From: Actinomycetota bacterium | Lineage (GTDB): Bacteria; Actinomycetota; Actinomycetes; Mycobacteriales; JACQDL01 | Length of the DNA: 64,000 nucleotides | Direction of reading: 5' to 3' | NCBI GenBank assembly: GCA_016201065.1 | Contig: JACQDL010000011.1 | Span: 13,772 to 77,771 of the forward strand | Shown here: positions 1,389 to 37,905 of the stretch, piece after piece | Numbering within the stretch: the first letter of the stretch is position 1 | Layout of the letters: every line of letters starts with the position of its first letter | Notes under the pieces: model-generated | Database searches by the model: none | Told to the model about the DNA's origin: nothing | The model's input: only the letters and a program-made list of their open reading frames with translations | Translations under genes and position numbers: made by a program

Positions 1389-2744
1389 ATGACAACCAGC
1401 CGGCCCGGCGGCAACGACAGGCTCCGCCAGGCGATGCACGCGGCAGGCCTGTCGAACAAAGCCCTCGCACGGGCGGTACGACAGCTCGCCGCCCGGCACG
1501 GGGACCATCTGGCCACCGATCACACCACCGTCGCCCGCTGGTTGACCGGCACCAACCCACGCGAAAGCACCCTGGACTACATCCTTGAGGCCATCTCTGC
1601 GAGGCTGGGCACACCGCTGGACGCCGAGGACCTCGGCTTCCTCGTAGCCGAACGCGTCGCGGCCGACCTAGGGCTGCGGTACCTGCCGTCGCTGCACGAT
1701 TCGATCGGTGTGCTCGCGGAGCTCACCCGCCTGGACGCCACACAGCACCCCACCATCAGTGCCAGCACCTACTCAGCCGACGCGGTGCACGCCCTCTGCC
1801 TGGACTGGCTGTTCGGCGAGTCCACGAACGATCTCAACGAGAACCACAAGCCGGTTCGGGCTACGGACGTTGACGAACTGCGGATGATGACCGCGACGTT
1901 CGACCACCTCGACCGTCGGGGCGCCGGCGAAGAACACCGACAACTGGCGGTGCGCTACCTGCACGACATCGTGGTACCGAAACTGGGAAGGGCTGCCACC
2001 GACCCGGCTGGTCGCGACTTCCTCCAGGCGACCGCGATCCTGTGCGAACTCATCGGCTGGATGGCCTTCGACACCCTCCACCACGCGACCGCGCAACGCT
2101 ACTTCTCACAAGCCATCAGGTTCGCCGAGGCCGCCGGCGATCAGGGCTACGCGGCGTTCGCGGTGGCGAGCATGGCCGACCAGGCCCTTTTCGTCGGCCA
2201 ACCCACGCAGGCACTACGCCTCGCGCAGGTCGCTGGCGACCGAAGCGGACGCACCGGCCACCCAGTCACCACGACCGAGGCGCATGTGCTCCGGGCCCGC
2301 GCGTACGCCACGCTCGGCGAGGTCAAGTCCTGTTCAAGGGCGCTCACCCGTGCCGAGCGCACCTTCAACCAACTCGACGGCACCGACCACCCGACTTGGG
2401 CAGCCCACTGGACCGAGTACGTCCTGTCCAGCCACGCGGGCACCTGCTGGACCGATCTCGGGCAGGTCGACGAAGCCAGCCGGCAGATCGGGTTCGCGTG
2501 GCGGGCCGCTCAGCACCAACCCCGCCGCCTCGTCTACAACACGGTCCAACTCGGTCGTATCGCGTTACTGCGTCACGACGTGGAGGAAGCCTGTCACTAC
2601 CTCGGCCTCGCCGAGGAGAACAACAACGACCTCCTGTCCGAACGGTCCGCCTGGCACGTCACCCGGCTGCGCGACACGCTCACCACCGACCACGGCGGTC
2701 ACACCGCGGTGCGGCAACTCAGGGCCACGACCCCGCAGCCGTGA
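1389..2744 (+). CDS. HTH transcriptional regulator with C-terminal TPR-like helical repeat domain
   Basis: 451-aa ORF. N-terminal HTH (LRQAMHAAGLSNKALARAV...HTTVARWLTG). The C-terminal region is helical-repeat-like (YFSQAIRFAEAAGDQGYAAFAVASMADQALFVGQ..., LRARAYATLGEV...). The N-terminus resembles that of ORF 3792. Confidence 0.7.
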   Translation: MTTSRPGGNDRLRQAMHAAGLSNKALARAVRQLAARHGDHLATDHTTVARWLTGTNPRESTLDYILEAISARLGTPLDAEDLGFLVAERVAADLGLRYLPSLHDSIGVLAELTRLDATQHPTISASTYSADAVHALCLDWLFGESTNDLNENHKPVRATDVDELRMMTATFDHLDRRGAGEEHRQLAVRYLHDIVVPKLGRAATDPAGRDFLQATAILCELIGWMAFDTLHHATAQRYFSQAIRFAEAAGDQGYAAFAVASMADQALFVGQPTQALRLAQVAGDRSGRTGHPVTTTEAHVLRARAYATLGEVKSCSRALTRAERTFNQLDGTDHPTWAAHWTEYVLSSHAGTCWTDLGQVDEASRQIGFAWRAAQHQPRRLVYNTVQLGRIALLRHDVEEACHYLGLAEENNNDLLSERSAWHVTRLRDTLTTDHGGHTAVRQLRATTPQP

Positions 2745-2791
2745 ACAGGTGAGCCACCCGGGCACGCGGTGCGCCGTAGTACCGTGACCTG

Positions 2792-3328
2792 GTGAGCTTG
2801 GCCGAGGACCTGCTGGCCGACGGCGAGCCGGAGAAGGAACACCACGCAGGGATCGCCACCCGGCAACCCCGCAAGCGGGTCGCTGGCGGTGCCCTCATCC
2901 ACGACGGCTCCGGTCGGTTGCTGTTCGTGATCCCCAATTACAAGCCCGGCCTGGAGATCCCTGGTGGCATGGCCGAGGAGAACGAGTCACCAGCCGCCGC
3001 GTGCCGCAGAGAAATCCGTGAAGAACTCGGGCTTGAACTCGACATCGGCGAACTCCTCGTCGTCGACTGGCTCCCCGCCCACGGCGTCTGGCCCGACGGG
3101 CTCATGTTCCTCTTCAACGGCGGCGTGATCGACAGTGTTGCCGCCCCAGGTATCGCCGCGAGGGATCCCGAGCTCGACGGGACCGTCTTCATGCACCTCG
3201 CCGACGCGGCCCCCCGTCTGCGACCCTCCATGATGCGTCGCCTCACCACCGCACTCGACGCCCTCCGTGACGGACGTCCCCGCTACGCCGAATTCGGGCG
3301 GAGCGGCCTGACCCAGCCAACCGAGTGA
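2792..3328 (+). CDS. NUDIX hydrolase
   Basis: Nudix box GX5EX7REUXEEXGU seen as GGMAEENESPAAACRREIREELGL. 178 aa, GTG start. Confidence 0.85.
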   Translation: MSLAEDLLADGEPEKEHHAGIATRQPRKRVAGGALIHDGSGRLLFVIPNYKPGLEIPGGMAEENESPAAACRREIREELGLELDIGELLVVDWLPAHGVWPDGLMFLFNGGVIDSVAAPGIAARDPELDGTVFMHLADAAPRLRPSMMRRLTTALDALRDGRPRYAEFGRSGLTQPTE

Positions 3329-3791
3329 CGCTCCAAGATCATCGCCGCCAGGTGCCACAGCCACCGGGACGCATCTGCCGGTAGGTCGGCCACCGACGCC
3401 CGGGGCGGTCGTGCCGCATGCCGGGCCACGATGCGCGCGGGTCGCCACAGATGCGTCCGTCCGACCGCCAGGTCAGGCGCCGGCATCAGGCCGTGCCCTT
3501 GGTAGCCGCACCAGCCGAGACCGAGACGCCGCAAGGGTGCGAGCAGTAATTCGGTGGGGTGGAAGTCCTCACGGACTCGCGCACGGATCGGACAAATTGC
3601 CGTACGGTGCCGCGACCCTCGCGCCGATGCGTTGACCTTTTCAATGACACGCACCGGACATTGACCGGTCGTGTGCCGGACGTTGGAGGAGTCCGTCCCG
3701 GTTCCGTGGAAGCCGGTGACCGTGTGGTCCGGTTCGGTGGTCGTACCGTTCTCGCGCCCACGGGACCGGACCAACCCATGAGGAGGGGTGA

Positions 3792-4267
3792 ATGAGCGGA
3801 CCGGTGTCGTATACCACCCGTTTGGCCACCCTTCTCGCCGGTCGACATCAGACCCGTGAAGAGGTCCTGGCGGATTTCCACGAGTGCGCCCGGCAACTCG
3901 CCGGGGCGGCGACCCTGTCGCTGCGGCAGTTGGATCGGTGGCTGGCCGGGAGGATGACCGGCCTGCCCCGACCCACCGCCTGCCGGGTGGCCGAGGCCAT
4001 GTGGGGCGAGCCGATTCAACACCTGCTCGCGCCCCCGGAGCCCGAACCGTCGATCCACCCGGCCCCCCGGGTGTTGGACCGTTCGCGGAGCGGCCTGCCC
4101 TCCGGGCTGCTGCCGTTGACCCCGAGCTGGTGCCGCGCTGGCACAAGCTCGGGGTGTTCGCCGTGTCGGAGAACCTGTTCGGGCCGCAGCACCCGACCAG
4201 CACCGTCATGCGGGAGCTGGCCGTCATCCGCATTGAGTCGACCGCGATGTGCAGGAACTCGTCATGA
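3792..4267 (+). pseudogene. Truncated/frameshifted HTH regulator remnant (paralog of the N-terminus of the 1389..2744 protein)
   Basis: Strong SD (gaggagggg) lies before ATG 3792. The first ~85 aa look like an HTH (LSLRQLDRWLAGRMTGLPRPTACRVAEAMWG). The frame then degrades, and protein-like sequence continues in the frame of ORF 3884..4267 (AVDPELVPRWHKLGVFAVSENLFGPQHPTSTVMRELAVIRIE). It ends convergently against the E1 gene. Confidence 0.35.
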
Positions 4268-5737
4268 CGTGGAGTGTCGGTTGCGCCGTGCGCGGACGTC
4301 TTGGATGAGTTTGGCGTCGGTTTGACAGGTGCAGTTGTGTCTTGCGTTTCTTTTCTGGACCATGCCTGGCTGCGGTCCGTACAGGGTATCGTATTCGATG
4401 TCTCGGGAGATTGATTCTGGATGGGTGTTGTGTCGGATCAGGGCGCCGACAACGAGGGCTGCAGCTTGTTGCGCGGCGAAGACGATCGATGGCCGGAACT
4501 GCCCGGGATCTGGTCGAGCGGTGAGATCAAGAGCGCGAGCCAAGCCGCACACGGGTCGCCCTAGGTGGGCAGAGAGCAACCGCCGGCTGTTGGGCGACAG
4601 TTCACGGAGGTCATCCTTGGTGAGGGGTAGGTCGCCTCGGGCAATCCGGTCGAGGCGAAGTCCGGTAGCCTGGGCGAGGAGTTGTTCCGCCGATTGTCCT
4701 TTGCTGGATGGCTGTTGCGGGTAGTAGCAGCGCAGGCATGGCCCTGCAAAGGTTGCCTCGGAAAGGCCCACGGTGGTGCCAACGTTTCCGCCGGTGCTGC
4801 CGTCCAGAACCAAGTTGGCGTGCAGTCGGGCGATCTCGTGTCGCGCGTGGATGCTGTCGACCGCCCCGAGGACGGTCCGAGGTGGGGGCTCGTTGCCATT
4901 GTCGACTAGATTGAGGTATTCCAGAGCTCTGATCGGGTGGCGCCGGACGTCTATCCCCGGTAGGTGCTGGACGAGAATGTCCACTTTCGGAAGTCGCTTG
5001 GCTGCGGCGGCGAGGTCGCCGAGACTGTAGGTCGCGACATTCGGTTCCTCGAAGGATTCGGGATCCACGACAGCGAGGGTCCCAGTCGCAGATAGTTCGC
5101 GAAGGATCAACGCGACGGCGGTGCCGATGGCGCCAGCTCCGATAAGAACATGATGATCGAGAATCGATATTTCCGCGGCGACTCCCGGTTCGGCGAGAGT
5201 GACGGGGCATAGGTCGATGCGGTCCCGTTTGACGTGCCGGTTGGGCGCGAGGTCGATGATCTCCTTGAATACCTCCGCGGCGAGGACGGCGGCGGTGTAG
5301 ACCGACCCCAGTCCGGTGCCGCGGTGAACGGTTGGGAAGGGGTGGCCGGCCCGGCGCAGTCGCACACCGTGGCCGTCGGGAACACCGCTGATGCCAGCGC
5401 CTAAGGGCGTGGTCCCGACGTGGACGTGTAGGTCGGTGCCGGTACTGCGCCCGAACTGGAGTGGGCGGTCAGGGTCGATGCCGGCGGCAAGTGCGGCAAG
5501 GTCGTCCAAGACCGCTCCACGAAGGTTGGAAGCGCGCGGATCGAGGCGCACGGTGATCGGGAGCCGGCGAAGGTTGCCTATCAGGACCTGCAGACATGAC
5601 AGCTGTCCTGGATCCGCAGTAACACAGACGGTCGTGGATTTCAATCGCTCCTGTACATTGGAGGGCCGGTAGGTGCCTTGTGTGGCCAGCCGTAGCGGGC
5701 GACTGTAGTCAGTGGGCACGTACACCGCCCGCGTCAA
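4262..5737 (-). CDS. E1-like ThiF/MoeB-family adenylyltransferase (BilD-like)
   Basis: Rossmann nucleotide loop HHVLIGAGAIGTAVA. ThiF-like core with cysteine pairs GPCLRC and CTC. ~490 aa with an extra N-terminal domain. Last gene of the overlapping Ubl-E2-JAB-E1 operon. The annotated start is TTG at 5737; alternative GTG starts are at 5725 and 5719. Confidence 0.85.
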   Translation of the reverse strand: MTRAVYVPTDYSRPLRLATQGTYRPSNVQERLKSTTVCVTADPGQLSCLQVLIGNLRRLPITVRLDPRASNLRGAVLDDLAALAAGIDPDRPLQFGRSTGTDLHVHVGTTPLGAGISGVPDGHGVRLRRAGHPFPTVHRGTGLGSVYTAAVLAAEVFKEIIDLAPNRHVKRDRIDLCPVTLAEPGVAAEISILDHHVLIGAGAIGTAVALILRELSATGTLAVVDPESFEEPNVATYSLGDLAAAAKRLPKVDILVQHLPGIDVRRHPIRALEYLNLVDNGNEPPPRTVLGAVDSIHARHEIARLHANLVLDGSTGGNVGTTVGLSEATFAGPCLRCYYPQQPSSKGQSAEQLLAQATGLRLDRIARGDLPLTKDDLRELSPNSRRLLSAHLGRPVCGLARALDLTARPDPGQFRPSIVFAAQQAAALVVGALIRHNTHPESISRDIEYDTLYGPQPGMVQKRNARHNCTCQTDAKLIQDVRARRNRHSTS

Positions 5738-6194
5738 CGGTCAGGACGGCGACCGGACCGTCTATCAGAGTTGCCGATGGTGACGGGGCCCAGTCGGATC
5801 CGGTGAACGCCCACCATCCCCAGGAGGCCGGGTCGCCTGGCGGGCTTGCGAAGTCCGGGACGACCGCGGCGAGGAATCCACGCATTCGGATGCATCCTCG
5901 CCGGTCGGTCTCAGACAAGAACGCGGTCCGGGCGTGTGAGTGGAGGTGGGCGCGGACTTGGAGCTGGTGTTCCTCGGCGTAGGTGAACAGTCGGTCCAAT
6001 ACGGGCATGGCGAGGTGGAACTGGTCACGGCGCCTAGTGATTCCGGCGGTGCCGGCGAGTGCGACGGCGGTGACCTGCAGACCGCCGGGAGCGGTCATGA
6101 GCAGTGCCCCGGTCTCCAGTCCTAGCTCGCCGTAGCAGCGGATGTGCTCGGCGATGGCCGCTGTCGCCCCGCGCGGCAGGTCGAGGCGGCTCAT
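5709..6194 (-). CDS. JAB/MPN (JAMM) metalloprotease, deubiquitinase-like (BilC-like)
   Basis: JAMM motif HxHx7Sx2D seen as HLHSHARTAFLSETD, with an upstream Glu (LGLETGALL). 161 aa. The ATG overlaps the E2 stop (ATGA at 6191-6194). Confidence 0.85.
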   Translation of the reverse strand: MSRLDLPRGATAAIAEHIRCYGELGLETGALLMTAPGGLQVTAVALAGTAGITRRRDQFHLAMPVLDRLFTYAEEHQLQVRAHLHSHARTAFLSETDRRGCIRMRGFLAAVVPDFASPPGDPASWGWWAFTGSDWAPSPSATLIDGPVAVLTVDAGGVRAH

Positions 6195-6625
6195 GCTGCG
6201 CGTCGTCCTCCGGCCCGGTGGATGTCAGCGTGGAGGTTCTCCACCACGAAGAGGAAGGGGTTGCCAGTAGTTCGCCATACGTGTGGGCCGGACCGCCACT
6301 CGGGGTGCAGCCCTTGACCTTCGGCGGTGAACGGCTTGCACACATCGGTGGGCGCCCGATAACCCGGCGCCGACGGCCACGCCGAGGTATCGGTGGTAGC
6401 ACCGCCCGCCTCGACTGCGAATAGAACCGAGGGTGGCAGGTCGGGATAGAGGTTCCAGGCGATCCGGGCAACGAACGACGCGTGGCCATCGGGTCCGGCG
6501 ATCATCACCCAGTACAACCCGTCGGGGTCGCTGTCTCTGAGCACCAACCGTCCGCCGGCCCCGGCCAGGAAGTCCGCGACCTGGGTGGCATCCCGGTTCA
6601 GGCGCAGCTGGCTCTCCAGATCCAT
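6191..6625 (-). CDS. Prokaryotic E2/UBC-like protein (BilB-like)
   Basis: 144 aa, located between the Ubl and JAB genes. Candidate catalytic Cys in APTDVCKPF, followed by HPEW. An SD-like AGGTGA lies 7 nt upstream of the ATG. Confidence 0.7.
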   Translation of the reverse strand: MDLESQLRLNRDATQVADFLAGAGGRLVLRDSDPDGLYWVMIAGPDGHASFVARIAWNLYPDLPPSVLFAVEAGGATTDTSAWPSAPGYRAPTDVCKPFTAEGQGLHPEWRSGPHVWRTTGNPFLFVVENLHADIHRAGGRRAA

Positions 6626-6632
6626 GCCTACG

Positions 6633-6923
6633 TCACCTGGATCCAGAGATGGTCTCGGTCCGCAGCGCCAGTTTCACTTGGTGGCCGTGGCCGTGACCAC
6701 CTCTCAGGTCATCCAGAAATGTCCCGGCATCGACCTCGCTGCCGTCATGGAGCAGGTAGTACCGGGTCGTACCGTCGGCCGCAATCCCGAAGGCGGCCAG
6801 GGCGTCCGACAACACCTGTCCAACGGTCGTGGCCTTCGGGTACTCGTGCTCGTAGGGCCTGGCGGCTGCGGCGAAGGTGACGACCACCTCGACGTGGTGC
6901 TCTTCGTGGGCCTGCAGGGACAT
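6633..6923 (-). CDS. Ubiquitin-like beta-grasp protein (BilA-like / multiubiquitin-type, single domain)
   Basis: 96 aa, first gene of the operon, with strong SD ggaaggag. The pattern HVEVVVT...TTVGQVLSDALAAFGI...YYLLHDGSEVD...QVKLAL is typical of prokaryotic Ubl domains. The C-terminus is ...TETISGSR, with Gly two residues before the end. Confidence 0.65.
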   Translation of the reverse strand: MSLQAHEEHHVEVVVTFAAAARPYEHEYPKATTVGQVLSDALAAFGIAADGTTRYYLLHDGSEVDAGTFLDDLRGGHGHGHQVKLALRTETISGSR

Positions 6924-6940
6924 ATGACTCCTTCCGAGGG

Positions 6941-7031
6941 GCCGACAGCGTCGGCACTACTGCATCAGCGAAGTTGCAACGACACTTTGGCACGACGATC
7001 TGTTGCACGCAAGCGGCGCCGCACGTACTGT
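6941..7031. promoter_or_regulatory. Divergent promoter/operator region between the Ubl operon and the XRE gene
   Basis: Palindrome GCCGAC-agc-GTCGGC at 6941-6955. GTTGCAAC palindrome at 6973-6980. GTTGCACGCAA (TTGC-N2-GCAA) at 7002-7012. On the plus strand, -35 TTGCAC (7003-7008), a 17-nt spacer and -10 TACTGT (7026-7031) end 6 nt before ATG 7038, which suggests a leaderless transcript. Confidence 0.35.
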
Positions 7032-7037
7032 GCGTTC

Positions 7038-7562
7038 ATGCCGGTGGAGGGCACCGACGGGACGTCAGCAGACGACCGCGATGACTGGGTCGGGGAGGTG
7101 GAGCGCCTCGACATCGGTGCGCTCGGGCAGATGCTGCGTGAGCGCCGGGCGGGGCTTTCTATCCGGCAGGCCGCTCGGGACGCCGGGGTGAGCTTCAGCA
7201 CCTTCGCCCGGGTCGAAGGCGGCGCGCAGCCAGATCTGGCGACGTTCGCGAGACTGTGCGCCTGGCTGGGGGTGTCCCCGGCGAGGTTCTTCACCCCAGT
7301 CGTGGAGCGTGAGACATCTCCATTGGAGGACGCCATCACGCACCTGACGGGCGACCCCCGGTTGTCTGCGGTTACGGCGGGCAGGATCGCAGGAGTGTTG
7401 CGGGACATGTACGAGGCGCTCGCCCGTGACGCCGCACCACAGCCGATCATCGCCTGTCACCTCCGGGCTGCACCCCTCCTCCGCCCCGGGGTCGCCCCGC
7501 GCTTGGCTGCTCTCCTCACAGATCTGCATGACGAACTCCAGCGGCAGGTCGAGGCGCGGTAG
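7038..7562 (+). CDS. XRE-family HTH transcriptional repressor (CapH-like)
   Basis: Internal ATG at 7038 of ORF 6585..7562. HTH seen as LGQMLRERRAGLSIRQAARDAGVSFSTFARVEGG. Lies immediately upstream of an ImmA/IrrE peptidase gene (3-nt gap). Confidence 0.8.
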   Translation: MPVEGTDGTSADDRDDWVGEVERLDIGALGQMLRERRAGLSIRQAARDAGVSFSTFARVEGGAQPDLATFARLCAWLGVSPARFFTPVVERETSPLEDAITHLTGDPRLSAVTAGRIAGVLRDMYEALARDAAPQPIIACHLRAAPLLRPGVAPRLAALLTDLHDELQRQVEAR

Positions 7563-7564: not shown

Positions 7565-8122
7565 GTGACCCTCCCCCGAGGCTTCAAGGCCACTGCTGAG
7601 CGTGAAGCGACTCGTATCCGCCACGAAATGGGCGTATCAGAGGGTGACCCGGTCAATATCCTGTCCGTTGCGGAGCACGTCCAGGCCATAGTGGTGGGCG
7701 CCGACCGGCTGGTCGCCATCGAACGACTCGAAGAACTAGAGCGTCTTCAGGCATACGCTTTCTCGGCCGCAACATTCGACGTCAAGGGCAAGTCATACAT
7801 CGTCACCAATCCGCTCAGGTCTCGAGGGCGCCTAGCCAGCGACGTCGCCCACGAGATCGCGCACCTGCTCCTGCAACACGACCTCACTGAGATCCGCGAG
7901 ATCGAGGGCGTCCCATTTCGTACGTGCCGGCCAGATGAGGAAGAGCAGGCCACAGTGTTCGGCGGAACCCTCTTGTTGCCACGTCCCTTGCTCCTCAATG
8001 CCGCCAGGCGCGGCCTGGGTCCCGAACAGATCGCCGTCGCCTATGGTGTCACCACCGAAATGGCCCGATTTCGGTATACCACCACCGGCGTAGCCAAACA
8101 GGTTCTCCGCCGACCGCGGTAA
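7565..8122 (+). CDS. ImmA/IrrE-family zinc metallopeptidase (CapP-like)
   Basis: HExxH motif in VAHEIAHLLLQHDL. 185 aa. Paired with the upstream XRE gene. Confidence 0.85.
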   Translation: MTLPRGFKATAEREATRIRHEMGVSEGDPVNILSVAEHVQAIVVGADRLVAIERLEELERLQAYAFSAATFDVKGKSYIVTNPLRSRGRLASDVAHEIAHLLLQHDLTEIREIEGVPFRTCRPDEEEQATVFGGTLLLPRPLLLNAARRGLGPEQIAVAYGVTTEMARFRYTTTGVAKQVLRRPR

Positions 8123-8141: not shown

Positions 8142-9523
8142 CACGGGATCGGCAAGTTGGCGTTTTAGGGCGCGAAGATGCTTGTTATGGTCGCATGTCT
8201 TGTTTGACGTAGGGACGGCTTGCTGGTAGCGGTTTCTCTGATTCATGGGGATGGCCTCTAGCCCGGCATGATCACGGGTACCGAATCCTGATCTGACCGG
8301 AACAAGAGGCCATCCATGTCAGTGTCGCACGCCCGCGAGTCCGCCATGACCAACACCGACGGGGAGGCACCTGGCCTGCTGGATGTGCTCGCGCAGGTCC
8401 GGGACCCGCGTAAGAGGCGCGGGCGCAGGTTCGGCCTGGTGTTCCTGCTCGCGGTGGCGGTGGCGTGCGTGCTGGCCGGGGCGAAGAGCTTCCGGGAGAT
8501 CGGCGACCATGCCGCCGACCTGCCGCAGGACGTACTGGCCCGGCTCGATGGGAGGCCGCATCCGCTGCTGCGGCGGATCACCGTGCCCAGCGAGACACGG
8601 ATCCGCACCCTGGTCCACGCCATCGGCGCCGATGCCCTCGATGACCTGGTCGGGGGCTGGCTGCGGGCCCTGGTGGAGGCCGGCCGGTTGGACGGGCTGC
8701 TGAGGGCGATCGCGATCGACGGGAAGTGGCTGCGTGGTGTCGCCGACGGGCAGGTGAAGCTGTTCGCCGCGATGCTGCACGAGGAGAAGGTGATCATCGC
8801 CCAGCACCGCATCCCGGACGAGACGACCGAGACCACCCAGGTCAAGGAGTTGCTGGACGCCGTGGACCTGGACAACGCGGTGGTCACCGCCGACGCGGCC
8901 CACACCCAGCGCGAGACCGCCCAGTACATCGCGGGCAGCAAGGACGACGGGAACCGCGGTTGGCGACTACTTCCTGTTCCTCAAGGGAAACCAGCCGACC
9001 CTGCAGGCCGCGGTCTTCGACGCCATCCAACACGGCGGCCCCCGCGACCCGGACCACACGGAACTGGACCACGGCCATGGTCGGATCATCCGCCGCTCCA
9101 TCTGGGTCACCGACGCCGGGGACCTGGACTTCCCGCACGTGTCCCAGGTGGCGCGGATCCGCCGCGACCGCTACGACCTCGACGGCACCCTGATCAGCAA
9201 GGAAATCGTGCACGCCGTCACCAGCCTGAAAGAAGACCGCGCCACGGCCGTGGACCTCGCAAGGATCGCCCGCGGCCAGTGGGGCATCGAATCGGCGCAC
9301 TGGCTACGCGACACCACCTACGCCGAAGACGCCAATACCGGATATGCCGGGAATGGTCCGCAGGTCATGGCCACCTTCAGGAACATCGCGGTCAGCCTGC
9401 TCCACATCGCCGGCGTCACCGAGATCACCCGCACCCTCCAGGCCATCGGACGCGACCGAACCCGCCTACTCAACTACCTACCGATATGAGACCAGTATCA
9501 CAAACGACTTTACCGATCCCGTG
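8142..9523 (+). mobile_element. ISAs1-family insertion sequence (1382 bp) with 10-bp target site duplication
   Basis: Terminal inverted repeats are CACGGGATCGG(C/T)AA at 8142 and its reverse complement ending at 9523. Flanking direct repeats ATGCTGCAAG lie at 8132-8141 and 9524-9533. It encodes an ISAs1/H-repeat-type transposase. Confidence 0.85.
8316..9489 (+). pseudogene. ISAs1-family transposase, frameshifted
   Basis: The N-terminal part is in the frame of ORF 8316 (LLDVLAQVRDPRKRRGRRFGLVFLLAVAVACVLAGAKSF...TADAAHTQRETAQYIAG). The continuation (GDYFLFLKGNQPTLQAAVFDAIQ...WGIESAHWLRDTTYAEDA) is in the frame of ORF 9139..9489. A single-nt frame change lies near 8960. Confidence 0.8.
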
Positions 9524-9584
9524 ATGCTGCAAGCACCTCAACCTCACCGGCCCAACCGTCGCGACCTGTAGTGCCGGCACCGTC

Positions 9585-9672: not shown

Positions 9673-11235
9673 TCATACTTGCCGGAGTCGTTCGATCTGC
9701 CGTTCGAGGTTGATCAGATGGGTGGAGTGCGGGCCGTAGGTGATGCGGAACGCGGGCCTGAGTTCCTCCAGTACGGCGCGGGCCTCGGCGGTGCGTTGCT
9801 CCGTCGCCAGCATCTGCGCGATGACGAACCTGCTCTCAAGCACCCGTTCGGCGTTGTCCGGGTCATCGGCCTCAACGTTGCTGGTGAAGTAACGAAGATG
9901 GGCGAGCGCGGGCGCGGGTGCCCCGATTTCGGCGTAGGCGTGCCCCGCGTGGTAGGCGCACTCCAGCACCCTCGGGTGCGACGCCACCAGACCCCCAGCA
10001 CGGTACCGTTTACCAGCCCCGGCTAGGAGGGCGGCAGCGCGCCGGTACTCGCCGACGTAGAACAGGGCCAGCCCGAGCAGTTGCTGGAGTTCCAGTTCGA
10101 AGAACGGGTTGGCTGAGGAGCGTCGCAGTCCCGCTTCGAGCAGTCGCACCGCGCCGGTGTTGTCGCCACTGTCCAGCAGTGCGGCGACCGAAACGCGGAT
10201 CTGCTCGAACTCGGCATCGGTCAACGGTGCGCCACCGCCAGCGGGTTGGCGCGGTGGAGGTGGGGCGAGCAATGGAGTTCGGAACGGCCGGGTCGGGTCC
10301 CGGTTCGCACCACCCACACCCGCCCCTGGGGTGTGGGTGAAGGTCACCAGCGTGCGGTAGACCTGCTCCGCCGACGGGCGGCTGTCGGGGTCCTTGGCGA
10401 GCATCGTGTGGAGGAGCTGCTCCACCGGTTCGGGAATGTCCGCCCGGGTGGCGCGCGCCGACGGGGCCGGGGACTGGATGTGGTGGGCGCGCAGCGAGGC
10501 GTTCGGTGTGTCCAGGAACGGTGGGTCACCAGTGAGCAACTCGAACATCAGGCAGCCGAGGGAGTAGATGTCTGAGGCGGCGGTGACGGCCCGCCCCAGG
10601 TGTTGCTCGGGCGACATGTAGGTCGGGGTGCCCACGGTGCGGTCCACTTGGGTCAGCCGCGGTAGCGCGCCCGCGCCGCGCAGGATCGCGATGCCGAAGT
10701 CGAGGACCTTCACCACGCCGCCGTCGATGACCATGATGTTGGCGGGTTTGATGTCGCGGTGGACGATGTCGACCCGGTGGACGTCTGCCAGCACGGCGGC
10801 GATCTGGGCGCCGATCGCGGCGGCCCAGGAGATCGGGGGCGGTGCGGCCTCGTAGTCGGTCCGGTCGAGGAGCCCTTCGAGGGTGGAGCCTCGCAGCAGT
10901 TGCATGACCAGCCAGATCCGGGTGGAGCCGTCGGGTTGCTCGTCAATGCCGGTGTCGTAGACCGCCGGGGTACCGGGGTGTTCCAACTGTGCCGCGGTTC
11001 GGATCTCCCGGAGGAAGCGGGCACGGTCGCGTTGTTGCGCGTCGAGTAGTTCCTGGGCCTCGGGTCCATCCCCGGTGCGGGCGTGGGTGGGTTGGCGGAG
11101 CATCTTGATGGCGATGGCTCGGTCGAGGCGCTCGTCGTGGCCGTGGTAGACCTCGCTCATCCCGCCGCGGCCGAGCAGCGCGTCGACACGGTAGCGGCCG
11201 CTGAGCAGGTGTTCCGGCTCGACCTCTGGCGTCAT
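9673..11235 (-). CDS. Hanks-type Ser/Thr protein kinase with C-terminal TPR-like domain
   Basis: Kinase motifs AIKML (VAIK), HRDIKPANIMV, DFGIA and GTPTYMSPEQ. A Pro-rich linker precedes helical repeats (LLGLALFYVGEYRRAAALL..., YHAGHAYAEIG...). The ATG overlaps the hsdR stop (ATGA at 11232-11235). Confidence 0.9.
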   Translation of the reverse strand: MTPEVEPEHLLSGRYRVDALLGRGGMSEVYHGHDERLDRAIAIKMLRQPTHARTGDGPEAQELLDAQQRDRARFLREIRTAAQLEHPGTPAVYDTGIDEQPDGSTRIWLVMQLLRGSTLEGLLDRTDYEAAPPPISWAAAIGAQIAAVLADVHRVDIVHRDIKPANIMVIDGGVVKVLDFGIAILRGAGALPRLTQVDRTVGTPTYMSPEQHLGRAVTAASDIYSLGCLMFELLTGDPPFLDTPNASLRAHHIQSPAPSARATRADIPEPVEQLLHTMLAKDPDSRPSAEQVYRTLVTFTHTPGAGVGGANRDPTRPFRTPLLAPPPPRQPAGGGAPLTDAEFEQIRVSVAALLDSGDNTGAVRLLEAGLRRSSANPFFELELQQLLGLALFYVGEYRRAAALLAGAGKRYRAGGLVASHPRVLECAYHAGHAYAEIGAPAPALAHLRYFTSNVEADDPDNAERVLESRFVIAQMLATEQRTAEARAVLEELRPAFRITYGPHSTHLINLERQIERLRQV

Positions 11236-14200
11236 GGGGTGCCTGTCTGTCTGGTCATCTCCTCGCGGAGCTTGGCCAACGCTTCATCGCGCGCCGGTTC
11301 GGTGATGATGCGGTAGGCGCGACGGCGGGCGGCCTCCTTGACGGTCGCCCGGAACTCTGGGTTGTCGAAGTAGTTCTTGGTGAAGGTGGTGTTGCGGTCG
11401 GCGTTCTCGGCGACGAGGTCGTCCAGGCGATCGTCTGCGACCTGCCCGAATCGGTCTTCGTCGTTCATCAACGCGATCTGCTGCATGCCGGTGTCTTGGA
11501 CCAGGCCGGTGATCTGCTGGTAGATGAGGATCTCATCGGAGGTGCCCAGGCCGAGGCCGAACCGGTCGTTGAGTTCGGCGATCACCTCCGCCAGGGGCGC
11601 CATCTCGGGTTCGTGGCGGCCACCGCCGTCGGCGGCGTGGCCCCGCACGTCACGGTCACCGACGGCGGTCAGAGACACATCGTGCTTGCCGGTGAACTCC
11701 AACCGGAAGTGGGTCAGGTCGGCGTCGCCGACGTCGACCGCGGTCGAGGGGCGCCCCGGCAGGCGGACCAGCAGGATCCGGCCGTACTGGTAGAGCCGCT
11801 CCAGGTCGGGATCACCCCAGTCGATGATCTGTGCGAGCAGGCTGTAGGCACGCAGATAGGTCTGCAGGGCGCTGCGGAAGCCCTCACGCTCGTCATCGGT
11901 GTCCAGTGCCCGGAACCGGTCGACCGCGGGGGTGAGGTACTGGTGCAGCCGGGCGTGGAGCTTCTTCTCCGCCGTGGCCGGCAGCCGGTCGGGTCCCGCT
12001 TCACCGAGGACCCGCAGGAACGCCTGCATTTCCGAGGCCGCCAGCAGCCCGTACTCCATGACTTCGCGTTGCTTGTCGTAGAGCAGGTTGGGGTCGGCGG
12101 GCTCGGTGATCGTCGTTTCGAACCAGTCCTTGAACGCCTCCTGGATGGTGGCGGCGTCGTTGACGAAGTCCAGGATCCGTACGTCGTCCTGGGCTTTCAA
12201 CGGGTGGATCCGGTTGAGGCGCGACAGGGTCTGCACCGCGGCGACACCTGTCAGGGGCTTGTCGACGTACATGCCACACAGCAGCGGCTGGTCGAACCCG
12301 GTCTGGTACTTCTCCGCCACGACCAGCAACCGGTACTCCTCCTGGTCGCGGGCAGGAGCCTGCGGGTCGTCGGCCTTGGTGTAGGCGAACCGGTCGGGTA
12401 GTTGCGTCTCCCCGAACCCGTTCAGCTGCGCCTCGGTGTACTCCACCCCGGTGGACTCCTCCGTCAGCGACCCCGAGAACGCCACCAGCACCCCTAGGTG
12501 GTGGCCGCGTTCGTGGACGTGCCGGCGGATCGCCTGGTACAGGTCCAGGGCGTCCTGCCGGCTGCCGGTGACGACCATCGCCTTCGCCCGCCCACCCAGC
12601 CGGGGCTCGATGTCCTCCTGGAAGTCCTCGACGATCAGCTTGGCCTTCTGCGCGAGGGAGTTGGGGTGCCGTAGCGCCATGCGCACCAGCTTGGCTTTCG
12701 CCTTGGCCTCATCGACGTCGGGGTTGCTGATCGCCGAATCAAGCTGGTCGAGGGCGGCATTGCGCAGCCGCCACTTGGTGTCGTAGGTGAGGTAGTTGGC
12801 CAGCACGTCGAGGATGTAGCCCTCCTCGATCGCCTGGCGCATCGAGTACACGTGAAACGGCACGTACATGCCTGGTGTCGCATCATGCGGGTTAACCCGG
12901 TCCGGGTCCCAGGTGCCGAACAGCTTCAGGGTTGGTGACTTCGGGGTGGCGGTGAACGCGAAGTAGGACAGGTTCGGTTGCCGGCCCCGCACCCGGGTGA
13001 GGTAGGTGGCCTCGTCCTCCTCCTCATCCGCTCGGGCAGCGTTGACGCCGAGGGCCTGCTTGAGGCGGGTCGCGGCGTCCCCACCCTGGGAGGTGTGTGC
13101 CTCGTCGATGATCACGGCGTAGCGGCGACCACCCAAACCCGCGCCGGCGATCTTGTCCAGGATGTAGGGGTACTTCTGCAGCGTGCTGACTACGATCTTG
13201 GATGTGGCGTCCTCCAACGCGGCGGCGAGCTGGGTCGAGTCATCGTCGATCGTCTTGACCACACCGGGTTCGTGGTCGAACTGGAATATCGTCCGCTGCA
13301 ACTGCCGGTCCAGCGCGGTCCGGTCGGTGATCACCACCGTCTTGTGGAACACCGGGTGATTGTCGTCGTCGAAGAGGCTCGACAACCGGTGGGCCAGCCA
13401 GGCGATCGTGTTGGACTTACCCGAACCTGCCGAGTGTTGGATCAGGTAGTTGCTGCCCGCGCCGTGCGTGCGGGCGTGCGCGACCATCTTCTGCACGGCG
13501 TCCCACTGGTGGTATCGGGGGAAGATCCGGGGCGTGGTGTGCGGGCTGACCCATACCCCCTTCTTCTCCGCTTCCTGGACGTGCACGAACCGTTGTAGGA
13601 TCTCCAACCAGTTGTCCCGCTGCCAGATCTGCTCCCACAGGTACCCCACCGCGTAGCTGCCGGGCTCCGCCGGCGGGTTCCCGGATCCCCCACTCACCCC
13701 GGGGCCGCGCGAACCAATGTTGAATGGCAGGAACTGCGTGTCCTCACCCGCAAGACGGGTCGCCACGTATGCACGGTCCGGGTCAGCCGCGAAGTGAACC
13801 ACCGCACGCTTGGCGAACAACAGCTCGTTCGGATCTCGGGAACGGTACTGCGCGATCGCATGATTCACGTTTGTTCCAGTATTGGGATTCTTTAGCTCCG
13901 CGGTCGCCACCGGAATACCATTCACGAACAGGACAACATCAACCGACTTCTTGCGATCCCGGGTACTGAAGTGCACCTGCCGCGCCACGGTCAGGATGTT
14001 CGCGCCGTATTCACGCAACGCATCCGCAGCGAGTGTGTGACCGGGGCGGAAGTAGGCCAGATCAACCAGGATCCCCCGATCCTTCACACCGTAGCGGAGC
14101 ACATCGAGCACACCACGAGCATCCACCTCGGACGCCACACGCTGCGCGAACCGTCCCCGCGCCTCGGCCGCACTCCCGTAGAGCTCGACCAGCCTGTCCC

Positions 14201-14360: not shown

Positions 14361-14552
14361 GCTACCCCTCGCCTCGCCGTAGTTGCGTCGAGCTGACCGG
14401 TCACGGCGGCAGTTATAACTGCCTGACGGCGTTCAGACAGAAGCTCTCGGAGACGGCCAACTTCATCGCGCAGCGGTCTCGTTACGCGAATCGCATTCCC
14501 GATTTCGCGCTGCTCCATCGGATGAACGCGGGGAACCGCTATGCTTCCGAAA

Positions 14553-20990: not shown

Positions 20991-21122
20991 TCTTACAAAC
21001 GCTCACATGATGCTACGGTGTCTCCGTCGTTGCACGCGGTCCTCCCGCCATCCGGGCCGCGAAGCACGGCCCCATCAGGACCGGAGCTGATCCGGTTCGA
21101 GACCACGAAAGGAACCCACGCC

Positions 21123-31664: not shown

Positions 31665-31799
31665 CGTGTCCTCGATGGTTGTGGTCCGGTTGGTGGACTC
31701 GCCGGGCTGGCGCGTCCTCGGTCCGGTGGCACCGCGATCCGGTTGACCAGCCGGTAGCGGCCACCTAGGGGGACGTCACGGGTCTGTGTGGCCACCGAC

Positions 31800-36129: not shown

Positions 36130-36184
36130 CGCCGTCTCCAGTCTGCGGCGTCCGCTCGGGAGCGCACGCACCAGTTGTGGTCGG

Positions 36185-37809: not shown

Positions 37810-37905
37810 GACTGACCCTCCTTGGACGTCCAGTTCCGATCGTATCCATCCCCATGCCCGAACGGGTCGTCAGTGCGCGACCGTGCTACCCTCCCCTGGC
37901 TGCTT

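What the first reader, a model, noticed from the sequence alone, without database searches (positions are those of the whole stretch)
4262..6923. Complete Ubl-E2-JAB-E1 (Bil-like) ubiquitin-like conjugation operon in an actinobacterial accessory island
**Seen in the sequence**
- Four co-oriented genes lie on the minus strand in this order:
  - a 96-aa beta-grasp-like protein;
  - a 144-aa protein with a candidate catalytic Cys (APTDVCKPF...HPEW);
  - a JAMM protease (HLHSHARTAFLSETD);
  - a ~490-aa ThiF-type E1 (LIGAGAIGTAVA, with CxxC/CxC pairs).
- The junctions are tight or overlapping: a 7-nt gap, an ATGA overlap, and an 11-29-nt overlap.

**Established knowledge**
This gene order matches the BilABCD systems shown to conjugate a Ubl to phage structural proteins. 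It also matches the Ubl/E2/E1/JAB operons predicted by comparative genomics.

**Unusual points**
- The Ubl is a single short domain rather than an ISG15-like tandem.
- It ends in ...TETISG-SR. This implies removal of two residues, presumably by the JAB protein, to expose a C-terminal Gly.
- The host is a high-GC actinomycete. As far as I recall, Bil-type systems have not been tested experimentally in this group.
Basis: partly seen in the sequence, partly recalled or inferred. Interest (0 to 1): 0.85.

Follow-up and report, generated by a model that had tools for sequence, protein, structure and literature searches.

The report
Divergent actinobacterial Bil-type ubiquitin-like conjugation operon
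This is a real, intact four-gene ubiquitin-like tagging system (tag, E2, trimming protease, E1) with its own repressor/protease switch, belonging to the already known bacterial "Bil" anti-phage family but from a divergent actinobacterial branch that current annotation models miss.

Summary
**Observation:** confirmed in every detail.

- **The genes.** Four co-oriented minus-strand genes encode:
  - a beta-grasp Ubl (6633-6923);
  - a UBC-fold E2 (6191-6625);
  - a JAMM peptidase (5709-6194);
  - a BilD-like E1 (4262-5719).
- **The junctions.** They are a 7-nt gap, an ATGA overlap and an 11-nt overlap.
- **Conservation.** All catalytic residues are present. They are invariant or nearly so in 43 related cassettes.

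**Interpretation (Bil-like):** supported. The three "unusual points" are not unusual. The Bil literature already reports single-domain Ubls, short tails after the conserved Gly, pre-processing by BilC, and CapH/CapP regulators.

- The cassette has six genes. A divergent HTH repressor (7038-7562) and an ImmA/IrrE (CapP-like) peptidase (7565-8122) accompany it in 26 of 39 species-level loci. Most other loci carry CapP-like modules in different arrangements.
- The E2 escapes Pfam, PADLOC and NCBIfam. Only profile-profile comparison links it to BilB-like/DUF7665 (99.3%, E 1.5e-20).
- The family is small: 99 clusters among 1.84 billion representatives. It is mostly Actinomycetota and often lies on mobile elements.
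- Public records call the Ubl, E2 and JAB "hypothetical".

**Verdict:** a new, divergent member of a known kind. Interest is moderate to low. Function is inferred by homology only.

The parts
6633..6923 (-). bilA-like ubiquitin-like protein: 96 aa, single beta-grasp domain, conserved Gly94 followed by Ser-Arg
   Evidence: - ORF found.
- PADLOC BilA E 4e-8, matching only the second Ubl domain of the Type I profile.
- AF2 mean pLDDT 81.6 with beta-grasp topology.
- Foldseek top hits are Caldiarchaeum ubiquitin, SUMO, ubiquitin and GABARAP; 440 hits at E<=1e-3.
- G94 is invariant in 45 homologues.
- Among the 38 species-level loci where a Ubl C-terminus could be read, 29 end exactly at this Gly, 6 carry 2 extra residues and 2 carry 1.
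6191..6625 (-). bilB-like E2: 144 aa, UBC fold, catalytic Cys96 with Glu102 and His107
   Evidence: - No Pfam, PADLOC, NCBIfam or PDB-sequence match.
- AF2 pLDDT 97.1.
- Foldseek hits are E2 enzymes (Ubc15, Ubc7, Rad6, UBE2R1) and BilB of 8tz0/8tyz, TM 0.55-0.64.
- The family profile matches BilB-like/DUF7665 sequences by hhalign: 99.3%, E 1.5e-20, with Cys, Glu and His aligned.
- Y60, P61, S66, C96, E102, H107 and W110 are invariant in 43 cassettes.
5709..6194 (-). bilC-like JAB/JAMM metallopeptidase: 161 aa, with Glu27, His85-x-His87, Ser94 and Asp97
   Evidence: - PADLOC BilC E 6.6e-10.
- Pfam Prok-JAB E 2.4e-4, below the gathering score.
- PDB 8tyx BilC E 4.2e-6, with Glu27 aligned to the mutated catalytic E33.
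- E27, H85 and H87 are present in 42 of 43 cassettes; S94 and D97 in 43 of 43.
4262..5719 (-). bilD-like E1: 485 aa from GTG 5719 (491 aa from TTG 5737). N-terminal inactive adenylation-like domain, active ThiF domain, Cys-containing insertion; no ubiquitin-fold domain was detected
   Evidence: - Pfam ThiF E 2.8e-9, above the gathering score.
- PADLOC BilD E 2e-4.
- PDB 8tyz BilD E 0.018.
- Full-length alignment with E. aridi BilD pairs C397 with catalytic C417, and C334/C337/C469/C471 with C340/C343/C491/C493.
- G200, G202, N233, K251, R299, C337 and C397 are invariant in 43 cassettes. C334, C469 and C471 are present in 42 of 43.
- The 485-aa form is independently called. The NCBI call of 415 aa cuts the conserved N-terminus.
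6924..7037 (.). 114-bp divergent control region between the Ubl gene and the HTH gene, holding two copies of a conserved motif (6960-6973 and 7000-7013)
   Evidence: - An alignment of this intergenic region from 12 loci shows two conserved blocks of the form CTT(n)GC(k)TG(nnn)CA(g).
- The loose pattern occurs only at these two places in the whole 64-kb window. The pattern was derived after seeing the data.
- No sigma-70 consensus site or terminator was found.
7038..7562 (+). CapH-like XRE-family HTH regulator, 174 aa
   Evidence: - Pfam HTH_31 E 1e-10.
- PADLOC capH only weak, E 0.007-0.03.
- Start defined.
- Found directly divergent from the Ubl gene at 63-69% identity in 22 of 39 species-level loci, and at about 32% in 4 more.
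- NCBI name: helix-turn-helix transcriptional regulator.
7565..8122 (+). CapP-like ImmA/IrrE (M78) zinc metallopeptidase, 185 aa, with HEIAH motif
   Evidence: - Pfam Peptidase_M78 E 3.1e-13.
- PADLOC capP E 9.1e-11.
- Co-occurs with the HTH gene in 26 of 39 species-level loci.
- NCBI name: ImmA/IrrE family metallo-endopeptidase.

Best explanation
**What it is.** The locus is a six-gene, horizontally mobile Bil-type (bacterial ISG15-like) ubiquitin-like conjugation cassette.

**Proposed mechanism.** Every step below is inferred from homology; none was shown here.
1. The JAMM peptidase removes the C-terminal Ser-Arg from the 96-aa Ubl and exposes Gly94.
2. The E1 adenylates Gly94 at its ThiF active site and takes the Ubl as a thioester on Cys397, which sits in a mobile insertion.
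3. The Ubl passes to Cys96 of the UBC-fold E2. Glu102 and His107 lie next to that Cys.
4. The E2 transfers the Ubl to lysines of a target without a dedicated E3. By analogy with Type I Bil, the target would be a phage tail protein, so progeny virions come out defective.
5. The same JAMM enzyme can also trim conjugates.

**Proposed regulation.** The HTH repressor would hold the operon off at two conserved sites in the 114-bp divergent promoter region. It would be inactivated when the ImmA/IrrE (CapP-like) peptidase cleaves it in response to DNA damage or infection.

**Placement.** The cassette belongs to a small, mainly actinobacterial branch. Its Ubl and E2 are closer to Type I Bil (BilB-like/DUF7665) than to Type II (CEHH). 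The Ubl has a single domain.
For: **Anatomy and coupling**
- Four tightly coupled genes with translational overlaps.

**Folds**
- Ubl: beta-grasp.
- E2: UBC fold.

**Homology to Bil proteins**
- BilA E 4e-8, BilC E 6.6e-10, BilD E 2e-4 in PADLOC.
- BilC 8tyx E 4e-6 and BilD 8tyz E 0.018 among solved structures.
- E2 profile against BilB-like sequences: 99.3%, E 1.5e-20. Those sequences themselves hit PADLOC BilB (E 4e-9 to 3e-15) and Pfam PF24702.

**Catalytic residues in 43 cassettes**
- Invariant: E2 C96/E102/H107, E1 C397 and the GxGxxG glycines, JAB S94/D97.
- Present in 42 of 43: JAB E27/H85/H87 and E1 C334/C469/C471.

**Ubl C-terminus**
- Gly is invariant. It is the last residue in 29 of 38 Ubls, and the rest of the readable ones have tails of 1-2 residues.

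**Natural gene fusions in the wider family**
- Ubl-E2 and E2-JAB fusions tie the parts together functionally.

**Published mechanism**
- Type I: E1 thioester, G163 requirement, conjugation to the central tail fibre.
- Type II: E1:E2:Ubl structures, BilC cleavage after the conserved Gly, CapH/CapP association.

**Regulators**
- capP E 9.1e-11.
- The pair is present in 26 of 39 loci.
- Alternative CapH/CapP arrangements occur in other loci, with capH E 2.6e-11 and capP E 1.7e-11 and 1.6e-17.

**Context**
- IS elements and a type I restriction-modification system lie next to the cassette in the window.
- Integrase, relaxase and conjugation genes flank it in relatives.
- It occurs on two plasmids.
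Against: **No experiment supports any step in this clade.**

**Sequence similarity to characterised Bil proteins is low**
- The E2 has no direct hit to PADLOC BilB, Pfam BilB-like, Prok-E2 or UQ_con.
- hhalign against E. aridi BilB gives only 23% probability, and the Ubl against E. aridi BilA gives nothing.
- Prok-JAB is below Pfam's threshold.

**Structure evidence has limits**
- Foldseek E-values for the E2 are modest, 3e-3 at best.
- The structure models are predictions.

**The target is unknown.** It need not be a phage tail protein.

**The regulator assignment is imperfect**
- The HTH matches capH only weakly.
- The M78 protein, at 185 aa, covers only positions 5-153 of the 242-position capP profile. 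It may work like ImmA rather than CapP.

**No copy was found in phage records.** This says nothing either way about defence.
Confidence: 0.72

Rival explanations
1. The biochemistry is the same, a genuine Ubl conjugation cascade, but the biological role is not anti-phage. The cassette would be a cargo module of mobile elements, induced by DNA damage. It would tag host or rival-element proteins, for example to control conjugation, superinfection or a stress response. A stress role of this kind has been suggested for Bub operons.
For: - The cassette lies next to integrase, relaxase, DUF87/TrwB-like, NlpC/P60 and DUF6112 genes in relatives, and on plasmids.
- It is coupled almost always to ImmA/IrrE-type switches, which are also the classic regulators of integrative elements.
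- The Corbett group proposes stress-sensing roles for related Ubl systems.
Against: - Both characterised Bil types are reported as phage defence systems.
- The window's neighbours are a type I restriction-modification system and IS elements, typical of a defence island.
- CapH/CapP pairs are described as regulators of immune systems.
Confidence: 0.2
2. It is a sulfur-carrier or cofactor pathway of the ThiS/MoaD-ThiF/MoeB kind, like the actinobacterial CysO-MoeZ-Mec+ cysteine pathway. There a beta-grasp protein is adenylated and thiocarboxylated by an E1-like enzyme and a JAMM protease releases the product. (The description of that pathway rests on my own knowledge, not on a tool result.)
For: - The E1 is a ThiF-family protein; TIGR02356 ThiF gives E 7e-7 but far below its cutoff.
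- A beta-grasp protein ending in Gly sits with a JAMM enzyme in an actinobacterium.
Against: - A UBC-fold E2 with an invariant Cys is an obligate part of the cassette.
- The E1 has the BilD architecture, with a conserved catalytic Cys in an insertion. No rhodanese domain was found.
- No cysteine synthase or sulfur-transfer gene appears in the annotated neighbourhoods examined.
- The top 50 structural matches of the Ubl are ubiquitin, SUMO, GABARAP-type and ISG15 proteins, not ThiS or MoaD.
- The distribution is sporadic and linked to mobile elements.
Confidence: 0.03
3. The HTH and M78 genes are not part of the system. They would be the ImmR/ImmA-type immunity switch of a neighbouring integrative element that happens to lie next to the operon.
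For: - ImmA/IrrE-HTH pairs are common on integrative elements; NCBI names the M78 protein 'ImmA/IrrE family metallo-endopeptidase'.
- The PADLOC capH match of the window's HTH is weak.
- Two or three loci (L018, L035, and L037 before closer inspection) showed no such gene by tblastn.
Against: - The pair sits immediately divergent from the Ubl gene in 26 of 39 species-level loci.
- Where neighbouring genes were listed (window, L001, L005, L007), the outer flanks of the cassette differ from locus to locus.
- The shared intergenic region carries conserved motifs.
- Other sub-branches carry different CapH/CapP-like modules at the same cassette.
- 15% of Type II Bil operons are reported to carry CapH/CapP.
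Confidence: 0.08

Closest known systems
Type I BilABCD (bacterial ISG15-like system, e.g. Collimonas sp. OK412; Millman 2022, Hör 2023/2024)
   Same: - Gene order Ubl-E2-JAB-E1.
- Protein sizes match the Type I profiles: E2 144 aa against a 159-position profile, JAB 161 against 168, E1 485 aa against a 453-position profile and a reported ~53-kDa protein.
- The Ubl matches the PADLOC BilA profile (E 4e-8) and the JAB matches BilC (E 6.6e-10).
- The E2 profile is homologous to BilB-like/DUF7665 sequences.
- A conserved C-terminal Gly.
   Different: - The Ubl has one beta-grasp domain, not two. It matches only the second domain of the BilA profile.
- The E2 itself gets no BilB or PF24702 hit.
- BilD similarity is marginal, 18 bits.
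- The hosts are Actinomycetota rather than mainly Alphaproteobacteria.
- A CapH/CapP-like module is nearly always attached.
Type II BilABCD (CEHH/6C operons, Ensifer aridi TW10; Chambers 2023/2024; PDB 8tyx, 8tyz, 8tz0)
   Same: - Same gene order.
- Single beta-grasp Ubl with a short tail after the conserved Gly, which BilC removes.
- E1 with an inactive plus an active adenylation domain, a Cys insertion and a four-Cys Zn site. All of these align.
- The catalytic Glu and the HxH...S..D motif of the JAB align with BilC.
- A C(+6)E...H arrangement around the E2 cysteine.
- CapH/CapP association is reported.
   Different: - The E2 is 144 aa against 204 aa.
- E2 similarity is limited to the 'YPxxPPSV' flap (hhalign 23%).
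- No Metal_CEHH (PF14455) hit.
- The Ubl shows no detectable sequence similarity to E. aridi BilA.
- E1 identity is 22%.
- CapH/CapP occurs in 15% of Type II operons, against at least 26 of 39 here.
Bub operons (Type I/II; 6E/DUF6527) and Type II CBASS Cap2/Cap3
   Same: - Bacterial E1/E2/JAB-based conjugation of a C-terminal Gly.
- The Ubl-E2 fusions in the wider family of this E2 recall the BubAB fusion.
- The E1 gives weak hits to CBASS E1-E2 (Cap2) profiles.
   Different: - No DUF6527 serine protease.
- No E1-E2 or JAB-E1 fusion in this cassette.
- No CD-NTase.
CapH/CapP (and ImmR/ImmA, IrrE/DdrO) repressor-protease switches
   Same: - A divergent HTH plus an M78 zinc peptidase next to an immune operon.
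- capP E 9.1e-11.
- Sister branches carry clear CapH (E 2.6e-11) and CapP (E 1.7e-11).
   Different: - The window's HTH is longer (174 aa) and matches capH only weakly.
- The peptidase is short (185 aa) and covers only the N-terminal two thirds of the capP profile.

Membership tests
Bil (BilABCD) systems, broad sense | Four separate genes in the order Ubl - E2 - JAB/JAMM - E1 | tested here: met
   - ORFs and junctions confirmed.
- E2-JAB-E1 follow in the same order in all 48 related loci, with the Ubl detected upstream in 46.
Bil (BilABCD) systems, broad sense | BilA: ubiquitin-like beta-grasp protein with a conserved C-terminal (or near C-terminal) glycine | tested here: met
   - AF2 model plus Foldseek.
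- PADLOC BilA E 4e-8.
- G94 invariant, with tails of 0-2 residues.
Bil (BilABCD) systems, broad sense | BilB: UBC-fold E2 with a catalytic Cys and a nearby conserved His | tested here: met
   - AF2 pLDDT 97; Foldseek hits to E2 enzymes and to BilB 8tz0/8tyz.
- hhalign to BilB-like sequences 99.3%.
- C96 and H107 invariant.
- There is no direct HMM hit to BilB or PF24702.
Bil (BilABCD) systems, broad sense | BilC: JAB/JAMM metallopeptidase with an intact E...HxH...S..D site | tested here: met
   - PADLOC BilC E 6.6e-10.
- PDB 8tyx E 4.2e-6 with the catalytic Glu aligned.
- E27, H85, H87, S94 and D97 conserved.
Bil (BilABCD) systems, broad sense | BilD: multidomain E1 (inactive plus active adenylation domains, Cys insertion with a catalytic Cys, structural Zn site, no UFD) | tested here: met
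   - ThiF above the Pfam cutoff.
- Full-length alignment with E. aridi BilD pairs C397 with C417 and the four Zn cysteines.
- Residues conserved in 43 cassettes.
- The domain architecture is inferred from the alignment, not from a structure.
Bil (BilABCD) systems, broad sense | Conjugates the Ubl to proteins and protects against phage | not testable with these tools
   This needs biochemistry and phage challenge. It is published only for proteobacterial systems.
Type I Bil | ISG15-like Ubl with two tandem beta-grasp domains | tested here: not met
   - The protein is 96 aa and its model has one beta-grasp domain.
- It matches only positions 72-135 of the 162-position BilA profile.
- Type I operons 'overwhelmingly' encode two-domain Ubls.
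Type I Bil | All four proteins recognised by the Type I-derived models (PADLOC BilA-D; Pfam PF24702 BilB-like) | tested here: not met
   - BilB and PF24702 give no hit.
- BilD scores only 18 bits, BilA 32 bits and BilC 37 bits.
Type II Bil (CEHH/6C) | E2 of the CEHH family (Pfam Metal_CEHH PF14455; C, E, H, H motif) | tested here: not met
   - No PF14455 hit.
- hhalign to E. aridi BilB gives 23%, over the flap only.
- C96, E102 (+6) and H107 are present, but the second His of the motif is absent.
CapH/CapP regulatory module | An adjacent HTH repressor and an M78 peptidase that cleaves it on DNA damage | tested here: inconclusive
   - The domains and the adjacency are met: capP E 9.1e-11, HTH_31 E 1e-10, and co-occurrence in 26 of 39 loci.
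- The capH match is weak.
- Cleavage and DNA-damage sensing cannot be tested here.

The most novel reading that the evidence does not exclude
This mainly actinobacterial branch may be a third Bil lineage, with two properties that set it apart.
- It would be hard-wired to a DNA-damage or infection-sensing protease-repressor switch. Three different CapH/CapP-type arrangements have been recruited to the same cassette.
- It travels on integrative, conjugative and plasmid elements.

Its target might then not be a phage tail protein. It could be a host or mobile-element protein. The cassette would act as an inducible ubiquitin-like signalling module in bacteria that already use Pup-proteasome tagging.
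Probability: 0.12. Interest if true: 0.6.

Novelty: new member of a known kind. Interest (0 to 1): 0.36.

Why it matters
- **Reach of the family.** It extends the Bil family of ubiquitin-like anti-phage systems into Actinomycetota, and sporadically into Acidobacteriota, Dormibacterota and Deinococcus.
- **A gap in detection.** The E2 scores nothing against Pfam BilB-like/Prok-E2, PADLOC BilB or NCBIfam. Public records call three of the four core proteins 'hypothetical', so this branch has probably been missed by model-based surveys. The alignments made here could seed better models.
- **Practical value.** Streptomyces and Mycolicibacterium have large phage collections (my own knowledge). A native-host test of what a Bil system tags, and of how the CapH/CapP-type switch turns it on, would therefore be feasible.
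- **What it does not change.** It leaves the current understanding of how Bil systems work as it is.

Tried and rejected
**Direct searches for the E2 and Ubl found nothing or little**
- The E2 gave nothing in Pfam (including the Prok-E2 families and UQ_con), PADLOC or NCBIfam.
- PDB sequence searches with the E2 and the Ubl gave only chance-level hits or none.
- hhalign of the E2 and Ubl family profiles against the single E. aridi BilB and BilA sequences gave 23% (flap only) and no match. A Type II assignment was therefore rejected.

**Calibration of the PADLOC Bil models**
- E. aridi Type II proteins also fail the PADLOC BilA and BilB models and score only 51 bits on BilD.
- Weak PADLOC scores therefore do not by themselves exclude Bil membership.

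**Control-region scans**
- The consensus promoter/terminator scan and the repeat finder found nothing in the control region.
- The conserved motif pair emerged only from cross-species alignment.

**Resources that were not available**
- Supplementary tables of the Type II Bil paper are not held. I could not check whether any listed operon is actinobacterial.
- Look-up of P0063 failed.

**Ideas considered and dropped**
- A Ser/Thr kinase as part of the system. Kinases lie near the cassette in the window, L001, L005, L011, L027 and L043. The positions vary and the count is close to what kinase-rich actinobacterial genomes would give by chance (my own estimate, not computed).
- ORFs 3283-4233(-) and 3792-4325(+), downstream of the E1, as extra operon genes. 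Their GC by codon position is not coding-like. The 384-aa gene that follows the E1 in Streptomyces has no counterpart in the window.

Full report
**1. Observation**

- Ubl, 6633-6923 (96 aa);
- E2, 6191-6625 (144 aa);
- JAB, 5709-6194 (161 aa);
- E1, 4262-5737 (491 aa from a TTG start).

The junctions were read from the DNA.
- Ubl to E2: TGA, then 7 nt, then ATG.
- E2/JAB: an ATGA overlap.
- JAB/E1: a 29-nt overlap from the TTG start, or 11 nt from the GTG at 5719.
- A GGAAGGAG ribosome-binding site precedes the Ubl ATG.

The GTG at 5719 (485 aa) is the likelier E1 start. Relatives begin at the equivalent position, and an independent gene call gives this form. NCBI's 415-aa call removes conserved N-terminal sequence.

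GC by codon position is coding-like in all four genes and in both regulator genes. It is not coding-like in the two ORFs downstream of the E1. The public record is an Actinobacteria/Actinomycetota MAG. There the Ubl, E2 and JAB are 'hypothetical protein' and the E1 is 'ThiF family adenylyltransferase'.

**2. What each protein is**

*Ubl*
- PADLOC BilA gives E 4e-8, but only to the second domain of the two-domain Type I profile. Pfam gives only sub-threshold ubiquitin-like hits.
- With 45 homologues, AlphaFold2 gives a beta-grasp model of mean pLDDT 81.6.
- Its best structural matches are Caldiarchaeum ubiquitin (24-26% identity), SUMO, ubiquitin, GABARAP and ISG15. There are 440 matches at E<=1e-3.
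- Gly94 is invariant.
- In 38 species-level loci, 29 Ubls end exactly at that Gly, 6 have two extra residues and 2 have one.

*E2*
- No curated model sees it: Pfam, PADLOC, NCBIfam and PDB sequences all fail.
- It has 163 close homologues. All are unnamed, none has a Pfam domain, and they come from Streptomyces, Micromonospora, Actinomadura, Kribbella, Nocardioides, Mycobacterium and others.
- The alignment shows the classic UBC 'YPxxPPSVxF' flap and an invariant Cys96...His107.
- The AlphaFold2 model is very confident: pLDDT 97.1, pTM 0.91.
- Every top Foldseek hit in the PDB is an E2 enzyme (Ubc15, UBE2R1, Ubc7, Rad6) or BilB from the E. aridi E1-E2-Ubl complex. TM-scores are 0.55-0.64, probabilities are about 1.0, and the best E-value is 3e-3.

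*JAB*
- PADLOC BilC gives E 6.6e-10.
- The solved BilC structure 8tyx gives E 4.2e-6. Glu27 aligns with the catalytic E33 that was mutated in that structure, and the HSHx6Sx2D motif has the same spacing.

*E1*
- ThiF scores above Pfam's threshold. BilD of 8tyz is the best PDB sequence match, at E 0.018.
- A full-length alignment with E. aridi BilD (22% identity) pairs three sets of features:
  - the glycine-rich loop;
  - Cys397 with the catalytic Cys417;
  - Cys334/337/469/471 with the Zn-binding Cys340/343/491/493.

*Conservation across 43 cassettes*
- Invariant: E2 C96/E102/H107; E1 G200/G202/N233/K251/R299/C337/C397; JAB S94/D97.
- Present in 42 of 43: JAB E27/H85/H87 and E1 C334/C469/C471.

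**3. Placing the E2 and the operon**

A profile of the E2 family, searched against 1.84 billion cluster representatives, found only 99 clusters at E<=1e-3. The family is small.

Its most distant members are themselves significant matches to PADLOC BilB (E 4e-9 to 3e-15) and to Pfam PF24702. PF24702 appears as DUF7665 in hmmscan and as 'BilB-like' in the precomputed annotation. Profile-profile comparison of the two groups gives 99.3% probability and E 1.5e-20, with the Cys, Glu and His aligned.

Comparison with the Type II E2 (E. aridi BilB, CEHH family) reaches only 23% over the flap. The Ubl shows nothing against E. aridi BilA.

As a calibration, E. aridi's own proteins also miss the PADLOC BilA and BilB models and score 51 bits on BilD. 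This cassette is thus roughly as far from canonical Type I as Type II is. Its Ubl and E2 lean towards the Type I/BilB-like side, and its protein sizes fit Type I profiles.

The wider family contains natural Ubl-E2 fusions (P0170, P0185, P0188, P0192, P0241). In these the Ubl part ends in '..QG' directly before the E2 domain. It also contains E2-JAB fusions (P0236, P0253). These fusions independently tie the three activities together.

**4. Conservation and context**

A scan of one genome per species found 39 loci.
- Most are Actinomycetota: Streptomyces, Kitasatospora, Micromonospora, Actinomadura, Nocardioides, Frankiaceae and Solirubrobacterales.
- One is a Thermoanaerobaculia MAG and one a Dormibacterota MAG.

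In all 48 fetched loci the E2 is followed by the JAB and the E1. tblastn finds the Ubl upstream in 46.

Directly divergent from the Ubl gene lie an XRE-type HTH gene (7038-7562; HTH_31 E 1e-10) and an ImmA/IrrE M78 peptidase gene (7565-8122; Peptidase_M78 E 3e-13, PADLOC capP E 9.1e-11).
- This pair is present in 26 of the 39 species-level loci.
- A second sub-branch has a clear CapH (E 2.6e-11) plus a 301-aa CapP (E 1.7e-11) in the same divergent position.
- A third sub-branch, in Solirubrobacterales, has a LuxR-type regulator, an unknown protein and a CapP-like peptidase (E 1.6e-17) downstream of the E1.
- Counting these, about 34-37 of 39 loci carry an M78 module.

The 114-bp region between the Ubl and HTH genes aligns across genera. 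It contains two conserved blocks, at window 6960-6973 and 7000-7013. The loose consensus occurs nowhere else in the window, but the pattern was derived after seeing the data.

The flanks mark the cassette as mobile cargo.
- In the window: a frameshifted DDE transposase, a kinase, a type I restriction-modification system interrupted by an IS66 fragment, and a DUF6119 gene.
- GC content is 0.58-0.69 over most of 4-23 kb, against 0.68-0.79 in most of the rest of the window.
- From about 30 kb the window holds the core pknB-pbpA-rodA-pstP cluster, followed by a tRNA-Leu gene.
- In relatives: integrase, relaxase, DUF87/TrwB-like, NlpC/P60 and DUF6112 genes.
- Two plasmids carry the cassette (Janibacter melonis, Deinococcus aetherius). 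No phage record does.

**5. Mechanism**

Shown here:
- the gene anatomy;
- the two predicted folds;
- homology to Bil proteins;
- intact and conserved catalytic residues;
- the conserved terminal Gly;
- the linked regulator module.

Inferred from the published Bil work:
- the JAMM enzyme trims Ser-Arg to expose Gly94;
- the E1 adenylates Gly94 and forms a thioester on Cys397;
- the Ubl passes to E2 Cys96 and then onto target lysines without an E3;
- in Type I the target is the phage central tail fibre, which yields defective virions;
- the HTH repressor is relieved by the M78 peptidase after DNA damage or infection, as described for CapH/CapP.

The target in this branch is unknown.

**6. Rivals**
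- *A sulfur-carrier pathway of the CysO/MoeZ/Mec+ kind.* This is unlikely. The cassette always includes a UBC-fold E2 with an invariant Cys. The E1 has the BilD architecture. No sulfur-transfer genes are nearby. The Ubl resembles ubiquitin and SUMO.
- *A non-defence role for the same biochemistry on mobile elements.* This cannot be excluded.
- *The regulator pair belongs to a neighbouring element.* Its fixed position across varying flanks argues against this, as does the recruitment of different CapH/CapP modules to the same cassette.

**7. Comparison with what is known, and novelty**

The literature already covers each 'unusual' point.
- 78% of Type II Ubls have a single domain.
- Overhangs of 2-9 residues after the Gly are reported for Type I, and up to nine residues for Type II, where BilC removes them.
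- CapH/CapP accompanies 15% of Type II operons.

Canonical systems were found mostly in Alphaproteobacteria and Rhizobiaceae. I found no paper on an actinobacterial Bil system.

The locus meets the broad Bil definition on every feature I could test. It fails the type-specific features of both types: no tandem Ubl and no Type I model hits for the E2, and no CEHH E2.

I therefore file it as a new, divergent member of a known kind, from a branch that annotation tools currently miss. It is not a new kind of system. Interest is moderate to low, 0.36.

Noticed in passing
window 6924-7037 (motifs at 6960-6973 and 7000-7013): The divergent promoter region between the Ubl and HTH genes holds two copies of a motif, CTT(n)GC(k)TG(nnn)CAG on the Ubl-sense strand. 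The motif is conserved in the same region of 11 other loci from several genera. The loose pattern occurs nowhere else in the 64-kb window. It is a candidate operator or promoter element, but the pattern was derived after seeing the data.
   Followed up: partly
proteins P0170, P0185, P0188, P0192, P0241 (Ubl-E2) and P0236, P0253 (E2-JAB): The wider E2 family contains natural fusion proteins. In the Ubl-E2 fusions the Ubl part ends in '..QG' just before the E2 domain. There are also E2-JAB fusions that hit PADLOC BilC strongly (E 5e-26 and 3e-31). The Ubl-E2 fusions recall the BubAB fusion of Type I Bub operons and imply obligatory proteolytic release of the Ubl.
   Followed up: partly
L005/L006, L013, L043, L045; L007-L009, L038, L040, L046-L048: Sister branches of the cassette carry different regulator modules. 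One is a divergent CapH (119 aa) plus CapP (301 aa). The other lies downstream of the E1 and consists of a LuxR/GerE-type protein (331 aa), an unknown 318-aa protein and a CapP-like peptidase (248 aa). So the same cassette has recruited three arrangements of an M78-based switch.
   Followed up: partly
window 9673-11235 (-); L001 13227-14429; L005 9413-12081; L011, L027, L043: A Ser/Thr protein kinase lies near the cassette in the window and in several relatives. The window's kinase has a long C-terminal extension. In L005/L006 a kinase and a TPR protein follow the E1 directly. The positions vary, and the frequency may not exceed chance in kinase-rich actinobacteria.
   Followed up: partly
window 8316-9524 (+) and 9139-9489 (+): There is a DDE_Tnp_1 / DDE_Tnp_1_assoc transposase between the cassette and the kinase. 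After about residue 215 its reading frame turns into Arg/Pro-rich sequence, and a plausible C-terminal part continues in another frame (ORF 9139-9489). It is probably a frameshifted, dead IS copy.
   Followed up: no
window 11232-20952 (-): A type I restriction-modification locus lies here. It has HsdR (11232-14360), HsdM (17276-19252), a second N6_Mtase protein (19249-20952) and an unassigned 411-aa ORF (16197-17432, possibly HsdS). An IS66-family transposase fragment (14584-15402) sits between HsdR and the rest. This region includes the lowest GC in the window, 0.58-0.62 at 16-19 kb.
   Followed up: partly
window 21018-22829 (+): A 603-aa protein gives a full-length, very strong match to DUF6119 (E 1e-114). 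It sits directly beside the restriction-modification genes, and its function is unknown.
   Followed up: no
window 3283-4261: About 1 kb downstream of the E1 has no convincing gene. The two long ORFs there (3283-4233 minus, 3792-4325 plus) lack a coding-like GC pattern by codon position. The first 85 or so residues of the plus-strand ORF look like a regulator N-terminus, so this may be a gene remnant.
   Followed up: no
window 4262-5737 (E1): The NCBI annotation of this MAG calls the E1 as 415 aa. This cuts about 70 residues of the conserved N-terminal domain. Residues from about position 8 onward are conserved across the family (R16 is invariant), and an independent gene call gives 485 aa.
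   Followed up: yes
window 29850-37989: The conserved actinobacterial cell-wall and signalling cluster lies here, followed by tRNA-Leu(CAG) at 37906-37989. It consists of PknB (kinase plus PASTA domains), PbpA, RodA/FtsW and a PP2C phosphatase. This marks the core chromosome next to the accessory region.
   Followed up: partly
window 1389-3328 (+): An HTH-plus-TPR regulator (451 aa) and a NUDIX hydrolase (178 aa) lie on the far side of the E1. No link to the cassette was seen in the related loci.
   Followed up: no
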